Assembly: GCA_026552855.1 (NCBI GenBank)
Contig: JAPMTX010000164.1
Span: 1,216 to 33,215, forward strand
Reading direction: 5' to 3'
From: Candidatus Methanoperedens sp.
GTDB lineage: Archaea; Halobacteriota; Methanosarcinia; Methanosarcinales; Methanoperedenaceae
Length of the DNA: 32,000 bases
The notes under the pieces: model-generated
Database searches by the model: none
Told to the model about the DNA's origin: nothing
The model's input: only the letters and a program-made list of their open reading frames with translations
Program-made: the position numbers and the translations under genes
In this document: in pieces, positions 2,897-4,174 of the stretch
Position numbering within the stretch: position 1 is the stretch's first letter
Layout of the letters: every line of letters begins with the position of its first letter

Positions 2897-4174
2897 TTAC
2901 GGGGTTGTTAATGCTGCTGCGCTGTCGCTTGCACTATTATTCAGACCAGTGATCTTTGTACCGTTACCATTGACATACATGTCTGGTATCGCTTCAGATC
3001 CAGCAGGCCATGTATAGGAATGATTACCGGTTGCCCATGTCTCGCCGCTCTGGTTGCCGAATACCGAGACCATGACAGTGCCCTCGGCTCTATAGTTACC
3101 CATATTCCATGATCCTGTATCGAGTCCAGTTGCGTCGAATGACAGCTTGTACCTCTTCGTGAAGTTGATGTCAACGGCTACGTGTGTATGGCAGCCGACG
3201 CATGCAGCGTTCGATGTATTATACGCGTACCTCAGGATACCGTTGGTATTCGAAGCCTTCGTAAATTCATCGTGGGCTTCTGCTGCACCAGTATCTGCTG
3301 CATCATCAGTGAGACCGAATCCGCCCGCTGCAAGGTCAGTCCATCTTGCACCTGGGGCAATCGGAGTGCCGCCATAGTGGCAGTTTCCGCATTCATTAGA
3401 TCCGTTCTCTGCTAACCTGGTATAATGTCCATAAGGTTCTGATCCTCTGTGGCATTCCATACAGGAAACCAGCGAAGCTGCGTGGTAATTAGTGCCTGGG
3501 TTAACGGCTTTGGAGCCAGAGTTATTTAGATCTGCTGTTGCACTTCTTCCACTGCCTTTGAACGCTAATACCTGGCTGAGGTCTAATCCTCCATACCTTG
3601 TAGATGCGTTTATGTCAAGTGGGTCTCCGGTAGCTCTACTGAATGCTGGATTCAATCTCTCAGCGTAAACCGTCAACGTCGGATCAGCAACTGTAGCACT
3701 TAGTGCACCATTACTTTTGAGAGTGGAGCCCGCTAATGTAGTACCATAAGTTGTTATACCACCATTACGGGATGATGGGAAGACATCTGAGCCGTTGATG
3801 ACTTTTGGATAATTCTCGGCTTCAAAGTCATATACAGTTACTGCCAGATATCTGTAGGACGATCCATTATTATACACTATTGTCGCATAAGCATTGTCAC
3901 CGCTTGCGTAACCTGGCTCGGCTCTGTGACAGTACTCGCACTTAAAGTTATAGTGGGGTCCATTCGAGTCTGGCTTATCCGCCACATTAGTTATCTGGTT
4001 GCTCTGAAGTTCAGCTTTAACATCACCGTGGCACTTAAGACACGGGACCTGGTTGCCTGTTGAATCTATGTTGTAGAAGGAGTGCTGCCCTGCGAATAAC
4101 GCCATAGTTGATGGCAGAGCGAAAACGCCAACTCCAACAAGTGCAATCAAGGCTAAAGCAAATTTGCTATTCAT
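2897..4174 (-). CDS. Pentaheme c-type cytochrome, 'LFAGQH' N-terminal family (425 aa)
   Basis: Five CxxCH motifs (CLKCH, CEYCH, CMECH, CGNCH, CVGCH). The N-terminus is MNSKFALALIALVGVGVFALPSTMALFAGQH. A GAGGTGA SD lies 8-9 nt upstream of the ATG at 4174. Confidence 0.85.
   Translation of the reverse strand: MNSKFALALIALVGVGVFALPSTMALFAGQHSFYNIDSTGNQVPCLKCHGDVKAELQSNQITNVADKPDSNGPHYNFKCEYCHRAEPGYASGDNAYATIVYNNGSSYRYLAVTVYDFEAENYPKVINGSDVFPSSRNGGITTYGTTLAGSTLKSNGALSATVADPTLTVYAERLNPAFSRATGDPLDINASTRYGGLDLSQVLAFKGSGRSATADLNNSGSKAVNPGTNYHAASLVSCMECHRGSEPYGHYTRLAENGSNECGNCHYGGTPIAPGARWTDLAAGGFGLTDDAADTGAAEAHDEFTKASNTNGILRYAYNTSNAACVGCHTHVAVDINFTKRYKLSFDATGLDTGSWNMGNYRAEGTVMVSVFGNQSGETWATGNHSYTWPAGSEAIPDMYVNGNGTKITGLNNSASDSAAALTTP

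What the first reader, a model, noticed from the sequence alone, without database searches (positions are those of the whole stretch)
2897..4174. Five paralogous small cytochromes share an invariant N-terminal block P-x-[ST]-x-[AS]-[LV]-[FL]-[AS]-G-[QG]-H at the end of the signal/anchor helix
The aligned N-termini are ...FALPSTMALFAGQHSFYN (2897..4174), ...FAMPNSLSLFAGQHTFDN (21074..21754), ...YAMPRTVALFAGQHTYYS (22951..23733), ...WYIPNTLSLLSGQHSYYN (45..1010) and the divergent ...STFKTYAVFSGGHTVYEN (23741..24184). In each protein the first CxxCH follows 10-17 residues later. If signal peptidase cuts after the small-x-small site (TMA/LS/VA), the mature protein would begin LFAGQH, leaving a conserved histidine 6 residues from the new N-terminus. 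In bacterial cytochrome nanowires of the OmcS type, an N-proximal histidine ligates a heme of the neighbouring subunit, and tetraheme filament subunits are also known from archaea. This family of 4-5 heme proteins, with its shared C-terminal C..CHT..AV.IN and FGNQSG blocks, is therefore a candidate polymerising cytochrome. Alternatively, the block is a new sorting or anchoring signal, or the helix stays uncleaved as a membrane anchor.
Basis: partly seen in the sequence, partly recalled or inferred. Interest (0 to 1): 0.7.

Follow-up and report, generated by a model that had tools for sequence, protein, structure and literature searches.

The report
Archaeal cytochrome-nanowire subunit paralogs
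Five genes of a methane-oxidising archaeon (Candidatus Methanoperedens) encode relatives of the subunit of an already solved archaeal conductive cytochrome filament (AvECN), and their shared N-terminal block is that family's signal-peptide cleavage site followed by a haem-binding histidine, so this is a real but largely known feature.

Summary
All five minus-strand ORFs exist and share an N-terminal module: a hydrophobic leader, P-x-[ST]-x-[AS], then [LV]-[FL]-[AS]-G-[QG]-H, then the first CxxCH. This is homology, not chance. Four of the five match the Archaeoglobus veneficus cytochrome nanowire subunit AvECN (PDB 8E5G) at E 1e-28 to 3e-7. AvECN carries the same block (PSTTSLFLGQH). The window comes from a Ca. 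Methanoperedens MAG. The block has two parts. The first is a textbook signal peptidase I site (-3 T, -1 S/A, Pro at -5). The second is the mature N-terminus L-F-[SA]-G-Q-H, whose His is one of exactly four conserved non-motif histidines for four bis-His haems. It is therefore almost certainly an axial haem ligand. In AvECN, three of the four distal His are reported to ligate haems of another subunit. The cross-subunit idea is therefore plausible, but I could not test it here. Methanoperedens/ANME homologues of AvECN are already in the literature, so novelty is low. Three less-described points emerged. The leader is more conserved than the mature protein. An archaeal-type signal peptidase I sits in the same operon in orthologous loci. 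Natural tandem fusions restart exactly at G-Q-H.

The parts
2897..4174 (-). Paralog A: 425-aa pentahaem AvECN-family cytochrome. It has a ~130-aa beta-rich insertion between haems 2 and 3.
   Evidence: Translation. PDB 8e5g_A E=1.4e-28. 100% identical to an NCBI Ca. Methanoperedens MAG protein annotated from M24. Homologous to the pentahaem paralog next to AvECN in A. veneficus, including the extra haem. AF2 gives pLDDT 80-95 for residues ~95-225.
4100..4174 (-). Predicted Sec signal peptide of A (residues 1-25, MNSK + h-region + PSTMA). Cleavage is predicted after A25.
   Evidence: The family profile has Pro at -5, T at -3 and S/A at -1 relative to the predicted cut. The leader is more conserved than the body.
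4082..4114 (-). The conserved block of A, PSTMA|LFAGQH. H31 is predicted to be a distal haem ligand at mature position +6.
   Evidence: (H31 is 100% conserved in 115 orthologues).
21074..21754 (-). Paralog B: 226-aa tetrahaem. It is the closest in size and architecture to AvECN. Block at 21662-21694.
   Evidence: 8e5g_A E=8.3e-15. Invariant non-motif H31 and H137, with H65 and H112 at >=90%. The AF2 model's only significant PDB fold hit is 8e5g (prob 1.00, TM 0.40).
22951..23733 (-). Paralog C: 260 aa, 3 CxxCH + 1 CxxxxCH. It shares mainly the N-terminal module. Block at 23644-23676.
   Evidence: 8e5g_A E=3.4e-7, N-terminal stretch only. The conserved gene order E-C-(12-haem)-B is seen in L001/L002.
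45..1010 (-). Paralog D: 321-aa tetrahaem, homologous to A over most of its length. Block at 924-956.
   Evidence: BLASTP A vs D 9e-41. 8e5g_A E=4.9e-16. It is the last gene of the operon A-G-F-X-D visible in the window.
23741..24184 (-). Paralog E: 147 aa, divergent (VFSGGH), with 2 CxxCH + 1 CxCH. Block at 24092-24124.
   Evidence: No PDB hit to 8e5g. Orthologues sit directly upstream of C and downstream of the 26-haem protein in the two loci inspected, L001 and L002.
1509..2090 (-). Six-haem small cytochrome F with a hydrophobic C-terminal tail. It is a conserved neighbour of the nanowire-type genes. G at 2186-2782 is 63% identical to it.
   Evidence: Homologous (E 3e-16) to the 196-aa cytochrome two genes downstream of AvECN in A. 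veneficus.
2186..2782 (-). Six-haem small cytochrome G, a paralog of F.
   Evidence: F vs G 4e-91.
1012..1476 (-). 'X': 154-aa non-haem protein with an N-terminal TM helix and no Pfam/NCBIfam/PDB match. It lies between F and D.
   Evidence: The family has 32 members in 30 of 80 loci, always next to AvECN-like genes. No family or PDB hits.
20585..21028 (+). Second member of the 'X' family, next to paralog B.
   Evidence: Same position in L001/L002.

Best explanation
The five ORFs are paralogous members of the AvECN/'MmcX' family of small archaeal multihaem cytochromes. One member of that family (A. veneficus F2KMU8, PDB 8E5G) is the subunit of an extracellular cytochrome nanowire. The conserved block is a composite of two parts. 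(i) The end of a Sec signal peptide carries a classical signal peptidase I site: Pro at -5, Thr/Ser at -3 and Ser/Ala at -1. (ii) The first six residues of the mature protein are L-F-[SA]-G-Q-H. Proposed course of events, with each step marked as shown or inferred. The leader exports the apoprotein (inferred). Haems are attached outside the membrane by the Ccm system (established knowledge). An archaeal-type signal peptidase I cuts after [ST]-x-[SA] (inferred); such a peptidase is encoded in the same operon in orthologous Methanoperedens and ANME-1 loci (shown). This leaves a free N-terminal arm whose His at +6 serves as distal axial ligand of a haem. That role is inferred from strict invariance and from the four-His-for-four-haems count. 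The A, B and D types then most likely stack head-to-tail into haem wires as AvECN does (inferred from homology). The N-terminal His possibly ligates a haem across the subunit interface (unresolved). C and E share only the N-terminal module and may be non-polymerising or accessory members.
For: Homology to the solved filament subunit, including the block itself. The only significant fold hit of both AF2 models is 8e5g. 8E5G is identified as AvECN. The family distribution I found (Methanoperedens, ANME-1/Methanophagales, Syntrophoarchaeum) matches published descriptions of this clade. Methanoperedens ECN homologues are already cited in the literature. Cleavage-site profile over 113 non-redundant N-termini: P(-5) 0.95, T(-3) 0.87, S/A(-1) 0.95, then L 0.94, F 0.94. 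The 8E5G model has 220 residues against a 262-residue SEQRES. That is compatible with loss of the 26-residue leader plus some disorder. In 44 tetrahaem members including AvECN, only four non-motif His are conserved: H32 100%, H64 82%, H108 95% and H165 100%. The other three non-motif His of AvECN are conserved in 2-9%. All nanowire haems are typically bis-His. In AvECN, three of the four haems get their distal His from another subunit. Natural 11-haem tandem fusions restart the repeat exactly at G-Q-H (E 9e-33 to 1e-14). They keep GQH[ST]F but not LF[SA] or the leader. GQH therefore belongs to the haem core at the unit boundary, and LF[SA] belongs to the N-terminal or cleavage context. The leader is more conserved than the body in A-D, the opposite of neighbouring cytochromes. 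The operon gene is a TIGR02228 archaeal signal peptidase I (65-84 bits, cut-off 51.85). It is present in 25 of 80 loci, always on the same strand as the cytochrome genes. Synteny with the A. veneficus nanowire locus: AvECN, then a pentahaem paralog, then a 6-haem tail-anchored cytochrome. N-glycosylation sequons occur at about 2-3 times expectation, and there is a glycosylation gene cluster in the island, consistent with extracellular location.
Against: No filament has been seen in Methanoperedens (review). I could not read the primary AvECN paper or the coordinates. The first modelled residue and the haem ligated by His32 are therefore unknown to me. The His lies 14 or 18 residues before the His of the first CxxCH. 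That spacing resembles cytochrome c7, where the upstream His ligates haem I of the same chain (own knowledge), so an intrasubunit role is possible. The AF2 models are mediocre (pLDDT 66 and 72), and TM to 8e5g is only 0.31-0.40. A and D carry a large insertion absent from AvECN that might interfere with stacking. C and E lack most of the AvECN body. There is no signal peptidase gene within 10 kb of AvECN in A. veneficus, so a dedicated peptidase is not universal. It is also not present inside this window.
Confidence: 0.75

Rival explanations
1. The proteins are non-polymerising small electron carriers. They would be monomeric cytochromes shuttling electrons between the membrane and the S-layer or the giant cytochromes. 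The N-terminal His would simply be the intramolecular distal ligand of haem 1, and the block would be conserved only for folding and haem ligation.
For: Chadwick et al. model the small ANME cytochromes as intermediates between membrane and S-layer. The His to first-CxxCH spacing is c7-like, and Pfam Cytochrome_C7 scores above its cut-off for A, B and D. C and E lack most of the AvECN body. The 11-haem fusions show the unit can function within one chain. No filaments have yet been seen in Methanoperedens.
Against: A, B and D are full-length homologues of a protein shown to form filaments. In that filament, 3 of 4 distal His are donated across subunits. A monomer of this fold would therefore leave haems under-ligated. 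The four distal His are conserved here.
Confidence: 0.2
2. The hydrophobic N-terminus is not removed. It would be a signal-anchor that tethers the cytochromes to the cytoplasmic membrane, as in NapC/NirT/NrfH/CymA-type tetrahaem proteins, and its conservation would reflect a membrane or quinol-side function.
For: The leader is more conserved than the mature part. Hydropathy scans score residues 1-29 as a TM segment. There are weak hits to NrfH (TIGR03153, 28 bits) and Cytochrom_NNT. [quoted passage not shown]
Against: The NrfH and NapC hits are far below the curated cut-offs (28 vs 134 bits; 12-17 vs 24 bits). The invariant Pro(-5), Thr(-3), Ser/Ala(-1) pattern is a cleavage site, not an anchor feature. 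The homologue AvECN was solved from an extracellular filament with 42 residues unmodelled. SignalP6 predicted a cleaved signal for MmcX. A signal peptidase I gene is in the operon of orthologous loci.
Confidence: 0.07
3. The leader plus block is a dedicated maturation or assembly signal read by the operon-encoded signal peptidase I, following the logic of SipW and the TasA fibre in Bacillus. It would not be a generic Sec signal. Cleavage would be the checkpoint that licenses polymerisation. This extends the best explanation rather than excluding it.
For: The leader is unusually conserved across orders. An archaeal-type SPase I sits on the same strand as the AvECN-like genes, immediately downstream of them in the Methanoperedens operons inspected. 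It is present in 25/80 loci from both ANME-1 and ANME-2d. The internal GQH copies in the fusions lack LF[SA]. This suggests that L-F-[SA] is constrained by the N-terminal context.
Against: There is no such peptidase near AvECN in A. veneficus. The B, C and E loci lack it within 6 kb. Chadwick et al. already ascribe an ANME signal peptidase to general cytochrome maturation. No experiment addresses its specificity.
Confidence: 0.25

Closest known systems
AvECN, extracellular cytochrome nanowire subunit of Archaeoglobus veneficus (UniProt F2KMU8, PDB 8E5G; Baquero et al. 2023 Cell)
   Same: It shows significant sequence homology over the whole tetrahaem core. It has the same leader and block (LPSTTS|LFLGQH), the same order of four CxxCH and four conserved distal His, and the same C-terminal CHT..V.INW / FGNxxG hairpin region. 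The gene neighbourhood is also shared: a pentahaem paralog followed by a 6-haem tail-anchored cytochrome.
   Different: A has a fifth haem and, like D, a ~130-150-residue insertion. In this it resembles the untested pentahaem paralog next to AvECN rather than AvECN itself. C and E share only the N-terminal module. Filament formation is unproven for any Methanoperedens member. Many orthologous loci add a signal peptidase I and the 'X' protein, which are not seen near AvECN.
MmcX of 'Ca. Serpentinarchaeum' Met12 and the 'small MHC group' of ANME/Syntrophoarchaeum/Archaeoglobales (Suzuki et al. 2024, PMC11176372; Chadwick et al. 2022, PMC9012536)
   Same: It is the same clade of 3-5-haem cytochromes in ANME-1, ANME-2d, Syntrophoarchaeales and Archaeoglobales. 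Genomes carry multiple paralogs, and some members are among the most highly transcribed genes. My genome scan recovers the ANME-1, ANME-2d and Syntrophoarchaeum part of that distribution.
   Different: In the passages I could read, those papers do not dissect the N-terminal block, the leader conservation or the tandem fusions.
OmcS / OmcE nanowires of Geobacter sulfurreducens
   Same: They share the functional principle of bis-His haem chains with an interfacial haem ligated by a His from the adjacent subunit.
   Different: There is no sequence relationship: no hit in any PDB sequence search at E<=10. The literature describes AvECN as unrelated to them in sequence and subunit structure. The comparison is analogy, not membership.
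SipW-TasA (dedicated ER/archaeal-type signal peptidase I that processes a fibre subunit in Bacillus subtilis)
   Same: A type I signal peptidase gene is embedded in the operon of secreted fibre-subunit candidates. There is weak similarity to the SipW model (28-41 bits).
   Different: The hits are far below the SipW equivalog cut-off (190 bits). The substrates are cytochromes, not TasA-like proteins. Specificity is untested. The comparison rests on my own knowledge of the Bacillus system.
NapC/NirT/NrfH/CymA membrane-anchored tetrahaem cytochromes
   Same: They are small tetrahaem proteins with an N-terminal hydrophobic helix shortly before the first CxxCH.
   Different: Scores are far below the family cut-offs. 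The helix here ends in a canonical peptidase site.

Membership tests
AvECN-type archaeal cytochrome nanowire subunit (PDB 8E5G) | Significant sequence similarity to F2KMU8 across the cytochrome core | tested here: met
   phmmer vs PDB: A 1.4e-28 (two stretches covering the N- and C-terminal halves), B 8.3e-15, D 4.9e-16. C matches only at the N-terminal module (3.4e-7). E does not match.
AvECN-type archaeal cytochrome nanowire subunit (PDB 8E5G) | Leader ending in P-x-[ST]-x-[SA] followed by L-F-x-G-Q-H and the first CxxCH | tested here: met
   AvECN has LPSTTSLFLGQH...CEKCH. All five window proteins align to it.
AvECN-type archaeal cytochrome nanowire subunit (PDB 8E5G) | Four CxxCH plus four conserved distal His (bis-His haems) | tested here: met
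   44 tetrahaem members: H32, H64, H108 and H165 are conserved at 82-100%, and the other non-motif His at 2-9%. B: H31, H65, H112, H137. A has a fifth motif and a fifth conserved His, H250.
AvECN-type archaeal cytochrome nanowire subunit (PDB 8E5G) | Same three-dimensional fold | tested here: inconclusive
   Foldseek vs PDB: 8e5g is the top and only meaningful hit (prob 0.99 and 1.00; E 1.7e-3 and 3.2e-4). However, TM is only 0.31-0.40 because the haem-free AF2 models are poor.
AvECN-type archaeal cytochrome nanowire subunit (PDB 8E5G) | Homopolymerisation into an extracellular filament with a continuous haem chain | not testable with these tools
   No multimer prediction or coordinates are available. 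The review states that filaments have not yet been visualised in Methanoperedenaceae.
AvECN-type archaeal cytochrome nanowire subunit (PDB 8E5G) | Distal His donated to haems of another subunit (3 of 4 in AvECN) | not testable with these tools
   Known for AvECN from secondary literature only. Which His residues are involved could not be retrieved.
OmcS/OmcE-type bacterial nanowires | Sequence or fold homology to OmcS (6EF8) or OmcE (7TFS) | tested here: not met
   No hit to these chains at E<=10 in five PDB sequence searches, and none listed in the two Foldseek searches.
NapC/NirT/NrfH membrane-anchored tetrahaem cytochromes | Score above the curated family threshold | tested here: not met
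   PF03264 12-17 bits vs 24.1. TIGR03153 18-28 bits vs 134.
Cytochrome c7/c3 superfamily (Pfam PF14522, PF14537) | Pfam gathering score reached | tested here: met
   PF14522: A 35.7, B 28.1 and D 34.9 bits vs 24.8. C and E are below the cut-off. This is a generic multihaem motif family and says little about function.
Archaeal type IV pilin-like (class III) signal peptides | Cleavage motif [KRDE]-[GA] immediately before the hydrophobic stretch | tested here: not met
   The leaders start MNSK-ILLL, with no G/A at -1. The motif definition is from my own knowledge.

The most novel reading that the evidence does not exclude
The unusually conserved leader, the exact cut site and the operon-encoded archaeal signal peptidase I together form a dedicated maturation checkpoint. 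Cleavage would create the L-F-x-G-Q-H arm whose His completes a haem of the preceding subunit. Because 2- to 11-haem paralogs all carry the same arm, different paralogs could co-assemble, prime or cap mixed cytochrome wires in ANME and alkane-oxidising archaea.
Probability: 0.2. Interest if true: 0.65.

Novelty: new member of a known kind. Interest (0 to 1): 0.3.

Why it matters
Methanoperedens and other ANME archaea dispose of electrons from methane outside the cell, and how the long-range step works is an open question. These genes are the direct relatives of the only structurally proven euryarchaeal cytochrome wire. They sit in a haem-dense island with more than 120 haem motifs. They are therefore prime candidates for that step. 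The practical value of the finding is to define a sharp sequence hallmark for mining such subunits: the leader, [ST]-x-[SA]|LF[SA]GQH[ST][FW], and a first CxxCH cysteine 10-14 residues after the His in the five window proteins. It also points to testable accessory genes: a signal peptidase I, the 'X' protein and a 6-haem tail-anchored cytochrome. It does not reveal a new kind of system.

Tried and rejected
1) I tried to read the primary AvECN paper by DOI, PMC10330847 and PMID. It is not held.
2) I searched secondary papers and two supplements for a residue-level ligand assignment of 8E5G and found only haem indices.
3) AF2 monomer models of A and B are only moderate, with low confidence exactly at the haem-binding and N-terminal segments. 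No coordinates are returned, so His-haem geometry could not be measured.
4) I considered a type IV pilin-like class III signal and rejected it, because there is no [GA] at -1 before the hydrophobic stretch. I also rejected a lipobox (no Cys) and a PGF-CTERM/archaeosortase signal (absent from these five; present in ORF 12534-13805).
5) NapC/NirT/NrfH membership is rejected because scores are far below threshold.
6) No dedicated Pfam or NCBIfam model exists for this family. All hits are generic multihaem models.
7) The 'X' protein and the 488-aa operon protein have no Pfam, NCBIfam or PDB relatives.
8) I checked whether the 492-aa polytopic protein at 19036-20514 could be the ANME '8x TMH' haem-handling candidate of Chadwick et al. 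Its sequence looks more like a GT-C type glycosyltransferase and has no family hit. This is unresolved.
9) I looked for a signal peptidase next to AvECN in A. veneficus and found none within 10 kb.
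Full report
**What is in the sequence**

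Their N-termini align without difficulty. Each has a short charged start (MNSK/MNKK/MDKR) and about 16 hydrophobic residues. Then come P-x-[ST]-x-[AS] and [LV]-[FL]-[AS]-G-[QG]-H. The first CxxCH cysteine lies 10-14 residues after the His. I verified the exact block coordinates by translation.
- Haem motifs: A (2897-4174) has 5, B (21074-21754) has 4 and D (45-1010) has 4.
- C (22951-23733) has 3 CxxCH plus one CxxxxCH. E (23741-24184) has 2 CxxCH plus an odd CxCH.
- Pairwise BLASTP shows the shared part is chiefly the first ~55 residues (E 1e-10 to 1e-16 among A-D). E is weaker, at 5e-7 to C.
- A and D are homologous over most of their length (9e-41).

**What the proteins are**

A phmmer search of A against all PDB sequences gives one real hit: chain 8e5g_A, at E 1.4e-28. 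The alignment includes the N-terminus itself: AvECN LPSTTSLFLGQHMWYNISGTGNNLPCEKCH against A LPSTMALFAGQHSFYNIDSTGNQVPCLKCH. It also includes the C-terminal CHT..V.INW and FGNxxG region.
- B, D and C hit the same chain at 8.3e-15, 4.9e-16 and 3.4e-7 (C only through the N-terminal module). E does not hit it.
- 8E5G is the cryo-EM structure of the Archaeoglobus veneficus extracellular cytochrome nanowire AvECN, protein F2KMU8.
- AF2 models of A and B are mediocre, as expected for haem-free multihaem proteins. Their only meaningful fold match in the PDB is still 8e5g (prob 0.99 and 1.00, TM 0.31-0.40).
- A is 100% identical to an NCBI MAG protein of Ca. Methanoperedens sp. That record is annotated from Met24 and so lacks the leader. 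B is OIN66_15660 of the same 33-kb contig.
- The window also carries the 3' part of mcrA.

The window is therefore a Methanoperedens (ANME-2d) chromosome segment.

**What is already known**

The family is in the literature.
- Chadwick et al. 2022 describe one group of small multihaem cytochromes in ANME, Syntrophoarchaeum and some Archaeoglobales. Genomes carry several paralogs, and some members are among the most highly transcribed genes.
- Suzuki et al. 2024 name a member MmcX. They place it in a clade of 3-5-haem proteins of Methanoperedenaceae, Methanophagales, ANME-2, Syntrophoarchaeales and Archaeoglobales, and relate it to AvECN.
- A 2026 review states that Methanoperedenaceae possess homologues of the A. 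veneficus nanowire but that no filament has yet been seen.
- A Lake Cadagno study cites a 'Ca. Methanoperedens BLZ2 ECN'.
- A preprint aligns Methanoperedens, Borg and viral homologues with AvECN and notes conserved His and Cys.
- My own genome scan with the block pattern found 89 relatives in Methanoperedens, ANME-1/Methanophagales, Syntrophoarchaeum and relatives. This matches those reports.

**Anatomy of the block**

I collected 113 non-redundant N-termini (<80% identical) from the loci, the protein hits and AvECN, and aligned them on the His. The consensus is MNSK-ILLLSIAVVAVGLFALPSTLS | LF[SA]GQH[TS][FW]Y.
- Relative to the bar, Pro is at -5 (0.95), Thr at -3 (0.87) and Ser/Ala at -1 (0.95). 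Leu follows at +1 (0.94) and Phe at +2 (0.94).
- Gly at +4, Gln at +5 and His at +6 are near-invariant, but the selection pattern itself required these positions.
- Small residues at -1 and -3 with a helix-breaking Pro at -5 form the textbook signal peptidase I site (established knowledge).
- The 8E5G model contains 220 residues against 262 in its SEQRES. That is compatible with removal of the 26-residue leader plus some disordered residues, but I cannot place the missing residues.
- SignalP6 predicted a cleaved signal for MmcX.

**Role of the histidine**

I aligned 44 tetrahaem members, including AvECN. Only four His outside the CxxCH motifs are conserved: H32 (the GQH His, 100%), H64 (82%), H108 (95%) and H165 (100%), in AvECN precursor numbering. 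The three other non-motif His of AvECN are conserved in only 2-9% of sequences.
- B shows the same four: H31 and H137 are invariant, and H65 and H112 are at >=90%.
- The pentahaem group adds one motif and one more invariant His, H250.
- Nanowire haems are typically bis-His, and each of four haems needs one distal ligand.

The GQH His is therefore almost certainly an axial haem ligand. This is an inference from counting, not a structural observation.

**Own subunit or neighbour?**

[quoted passage not shown] The prior that His32 is one of them is therefore high, but I could not obtain the assignment. Against it, the spacing of the His to the first CxxCH (14 or 18 residues to the motif His) resembles cytochrome c7, where the upstream His ligates haem I of the same chain (my own knowledge).

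One new piece of evidence bears on the geometry. Among the family representatives are 11-haem proteins (P0290, P0295, P0317) that are natural tandem fusions.
- The second AvECN-like unit aligns to the first starting exactly at G-Q-H (E 9e-33, 2e-14, 1e-14).
- The internal copy keeps G-Q-H-[ST]-F but has neither the leader nor L-F-[SA].
- G-Q-H therefore belongs to the haem core and sits precisely at the junction between consecutive units. That is the position expected for an interface ligand in a head-to-tail polymer.
- L-F-[SA] is specific to the free N-terminus or the cleavage context.

This is suggestive, not decisive.

**An unusually conserved leader and a peptidase in the operon**

In the pentahaem orthologues, the first 24 residues are as conserved as the haem core (0.84 mean column identity, against 0.53 in the middle of the protein). 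I ran a control within the same loci, comparing identity to the reference over the first 24 residues against the rest of the protein.

| Family | First 24 residues | Rest of protein |
|---|---|---|
| A | 0.82 | 0.46 |
| B | 0.51 | 0.26 |
| C | 0.55 | 0.45 |
| D | 0.47 | 0.41 |
| Neighbouring 6-haem and 12-haem cytochromes | 0.32-0.50 | 0.58-0.61 |

The neighbouring cytochromes show the usual pattern of a poorly conserved leader. The AvECN-like families show the opposite.

Clustering all ORFs of the 80 loci revealed conserved companions. In Methanoperedens the gene order is:
1. A-type pentahaem.
2. 6-haem tail-anchored cytochrome (F/G in the window).
3. 'X', a ~150-aa non-haem protein with one TM helix and no family match.
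4. D-type tetrahaem.
5. A ~488-aa protein with no family match.
6. A ~228-aa protein.

In the inspected loci the genes are closely spaced and some overlap. The last protein is an archaeal-type signal peptidase I. It scores 25-39 bits on Pfam PF10502 (cut-off 22.9) and 65-84 bits on TIGR02228 (cut-off 51.85). It occurs in 25 of the 80 loci (about 0.8 Mb in total), in both ANME-2d and ANME-1, always on the same strand as the cytochrome genes. Archaeal genomes usually carry only one or a few such genes per several Mb (my own knowledge), so this is strong linkage.

In this window the operon runs off the left edge just after D, so the peptidase is not in the window. The 81%-identical locus L078 shows what should follow.

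Three caveats apply.
- Chadwick et al. already noted an ANME signal peptidase near cytochrome clusters and assigned it to general cytochrome maturation.
- The A. veneficus AvECN locus has no such gene within 10 kb.
- The B, C and E loci lack it.

**Synteny with the proven nanowire locus**

In A. veneficus, AvECN is followed by a 272-aa pentahaem paralog. That paralog is homologous to A, including the extra haem. Next comes a 196-aa 6-haem cytochrome with a hydrophobic C-terminal tail, homologous to F (E 3e-16). The A-G-F part of the window is therefore the counterpart of the AvECN locus. A corresponds to the uncharacterised pentahaem neighbour rather than to AvECN itself. B is the closest in size and architecture to AvECN.

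**Mechanism I consider most likely (confidence 0.75 for the package)**

1. Sec export driven by the leader (inferred).
2. Haem attachment outside the membrane (established for c-type cytochromes).
3. Cleavage after [ST]-x-[SA] by signal peptidase I, possibly the operon-encoded one (inferred).
4. The new N-terminus L-F-[SA]-G-Q-H supplies His+6 as a distal haem ligand (strongly inferred).
5. A, B and D types stack into haem wires as AvECN does (inferred from homology).
6. The N-terminal His possibly bridges subunits (open; about even odds).

Sequon density of 2-3 times expectation, together with the glycosylation genes in the island, fits a surface location. The rivals are monomeric shuttle cytochromes (0.2) and an uncleaved membrane anchor (0.07). 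The idea of a 'dedicated processing signal' (0.25) extends the main model rather than competing with it.

**Verdict**

The OmcS comparison is analogy only, and the cross-subunit ligation remains to be read from the existing structure. Novelty is low: these are new members of a known kind. The leader conservation, the peptidase linkage, the 'X' protein and the tandem fusions are modest additions. They make the assembly question experimentally approachable.

Noticed in passing
window 4512-6221 (+), 6315-12344 (+), 24189-27401 (-), 21950-22954 (+): The window is a haem-dense island. It holds a 2009-aa protein with 48 CxxCH plus 2 longer motifs, a 1070-aa protein with 26, and two 12-haem proteins. 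The 569-aa and 1070-aa proteins start with a purple-acid-phosphatase-N (FN3-like) domain. Counting the small cytochromes as well, more than 120 haem motifs lie in 32 kb.
   Followed up: partly
window 6090-6219 vs 12213-12342; 8859-9158 vs 10206-10505: The last ~130 nt of the adjacent 569-aa and 2009-aa cytochrome genes are 78% identical, giving near-identical C-terminal tails CGDCHRKPSQWHGNANITTN.S.LW. The giant gene also contains ~1.35-kb internal repeats.
   Followed up: no
window 13832-20514: A glycosylation-type gene cluster sits between the cytochrome genes. It comprises a GT2 glycosyltransferase, a 687-aa PMT_2/Agl23-like membrane protein, a GFO/IDH/MocA oxidoreductase, a DUF362 protein and a 492-aa polytopic protein with no family. 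All the cytochromes carry N-x-S/T sequons at 2-3 times expectation.
   Followed up: partly
window 12534-13805 (+): A 423-aa secreted beta-propeller-like protein ends in ...IPGFDIITTAVGLLAAVYILDKLKK. This looks like a PGF-CTERM archaeosortase sorting signal (the motif was recognised from my own knowledge).
   Followed up: no
window 27727-31976: Next to the 3' end of mcrA (31287-31976, -) lies a 723-aa B12-binding radical SAM protein with a C-terminal PqqD/RRE-like domain. Its best models are RiPP-maturation C-methyltransferases, all below cut-off. Nearby are a small zinc-ribbon (DnaJ CxxCxGxG) protein (30930-31184) and a 101-aa ORF with a Cys-rich tail (27727-28032). This could be a peptide- or McrA-modifying system.
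   Followed up: no
window 2897-4174 (-): The public annotation of this protein (402 aa) starts at Met24 (MALFAGQH...), so the leader is cut off. Several database relatives are truncated the same way (P0034, P0113). This would hide the signal peptide from automated surveys.
   Followed up: yes
window 1012-1476 (-) and 20585-21028 (+); 30 of 80 loci: A family of ~150-aa non-haem proteins with one N-terminal TM helix ('X') is encoded beside AvECN-like genes in Methanoperedens (between the 6-haem cytochrome and D, and next to B) and in one ANME-1 locus. It has no Pfam, NCBIfam or PDB relatives.
   Followed up: partly
L078:14926-15609 and 24 other loci (not in the window): An archaeal-type signal peptidase I (TIGR02228) is encoded on the same strand as AvECN-like genes in ANME-2d and ANME-1 loci, directly downstream of them in the Methanoperedens operons inspected. 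In Methanoperedens it is preceded by a ~488-aa protein of unknown family.
   Followed up: yes
P0290, P0295, P0317 (metagenomic proteins): These 11-haem proteins are tandem fusions of two AvECN-like tetrahaem units plus a 3-haem extension. The second unit starts exactly at an internal G-Q-H.
   Followed up: yes
L080:10001-11779 (A. veneficus): AvECN and its adjacent pentahaem paralog have near-identical C-terminal ~80 residues (ACIACHTYVPVKINWTHKVSLEFNCTYEYNTGTSGVTTHYNVTNWTVNGTRYTTV.GNTTGNGSVNDASNWPG), although they are only 52% identical overall. This suggests recent gene conversion of the beta-hairpin region.
   Followed up: no
window 22951-23733 (-) and 23741-24184 (-): Non-standard haem motifs occur here: C has CDDDRCH (CxxxxCH) at residue 150 and E has CICH (CxCH) at residue 65. 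The same motifs occur in relatives: the CxCH in E-type proteins (L002 member, P0300) and the CxxxxCH in a C-like protein (P0360).
   Followed up: no
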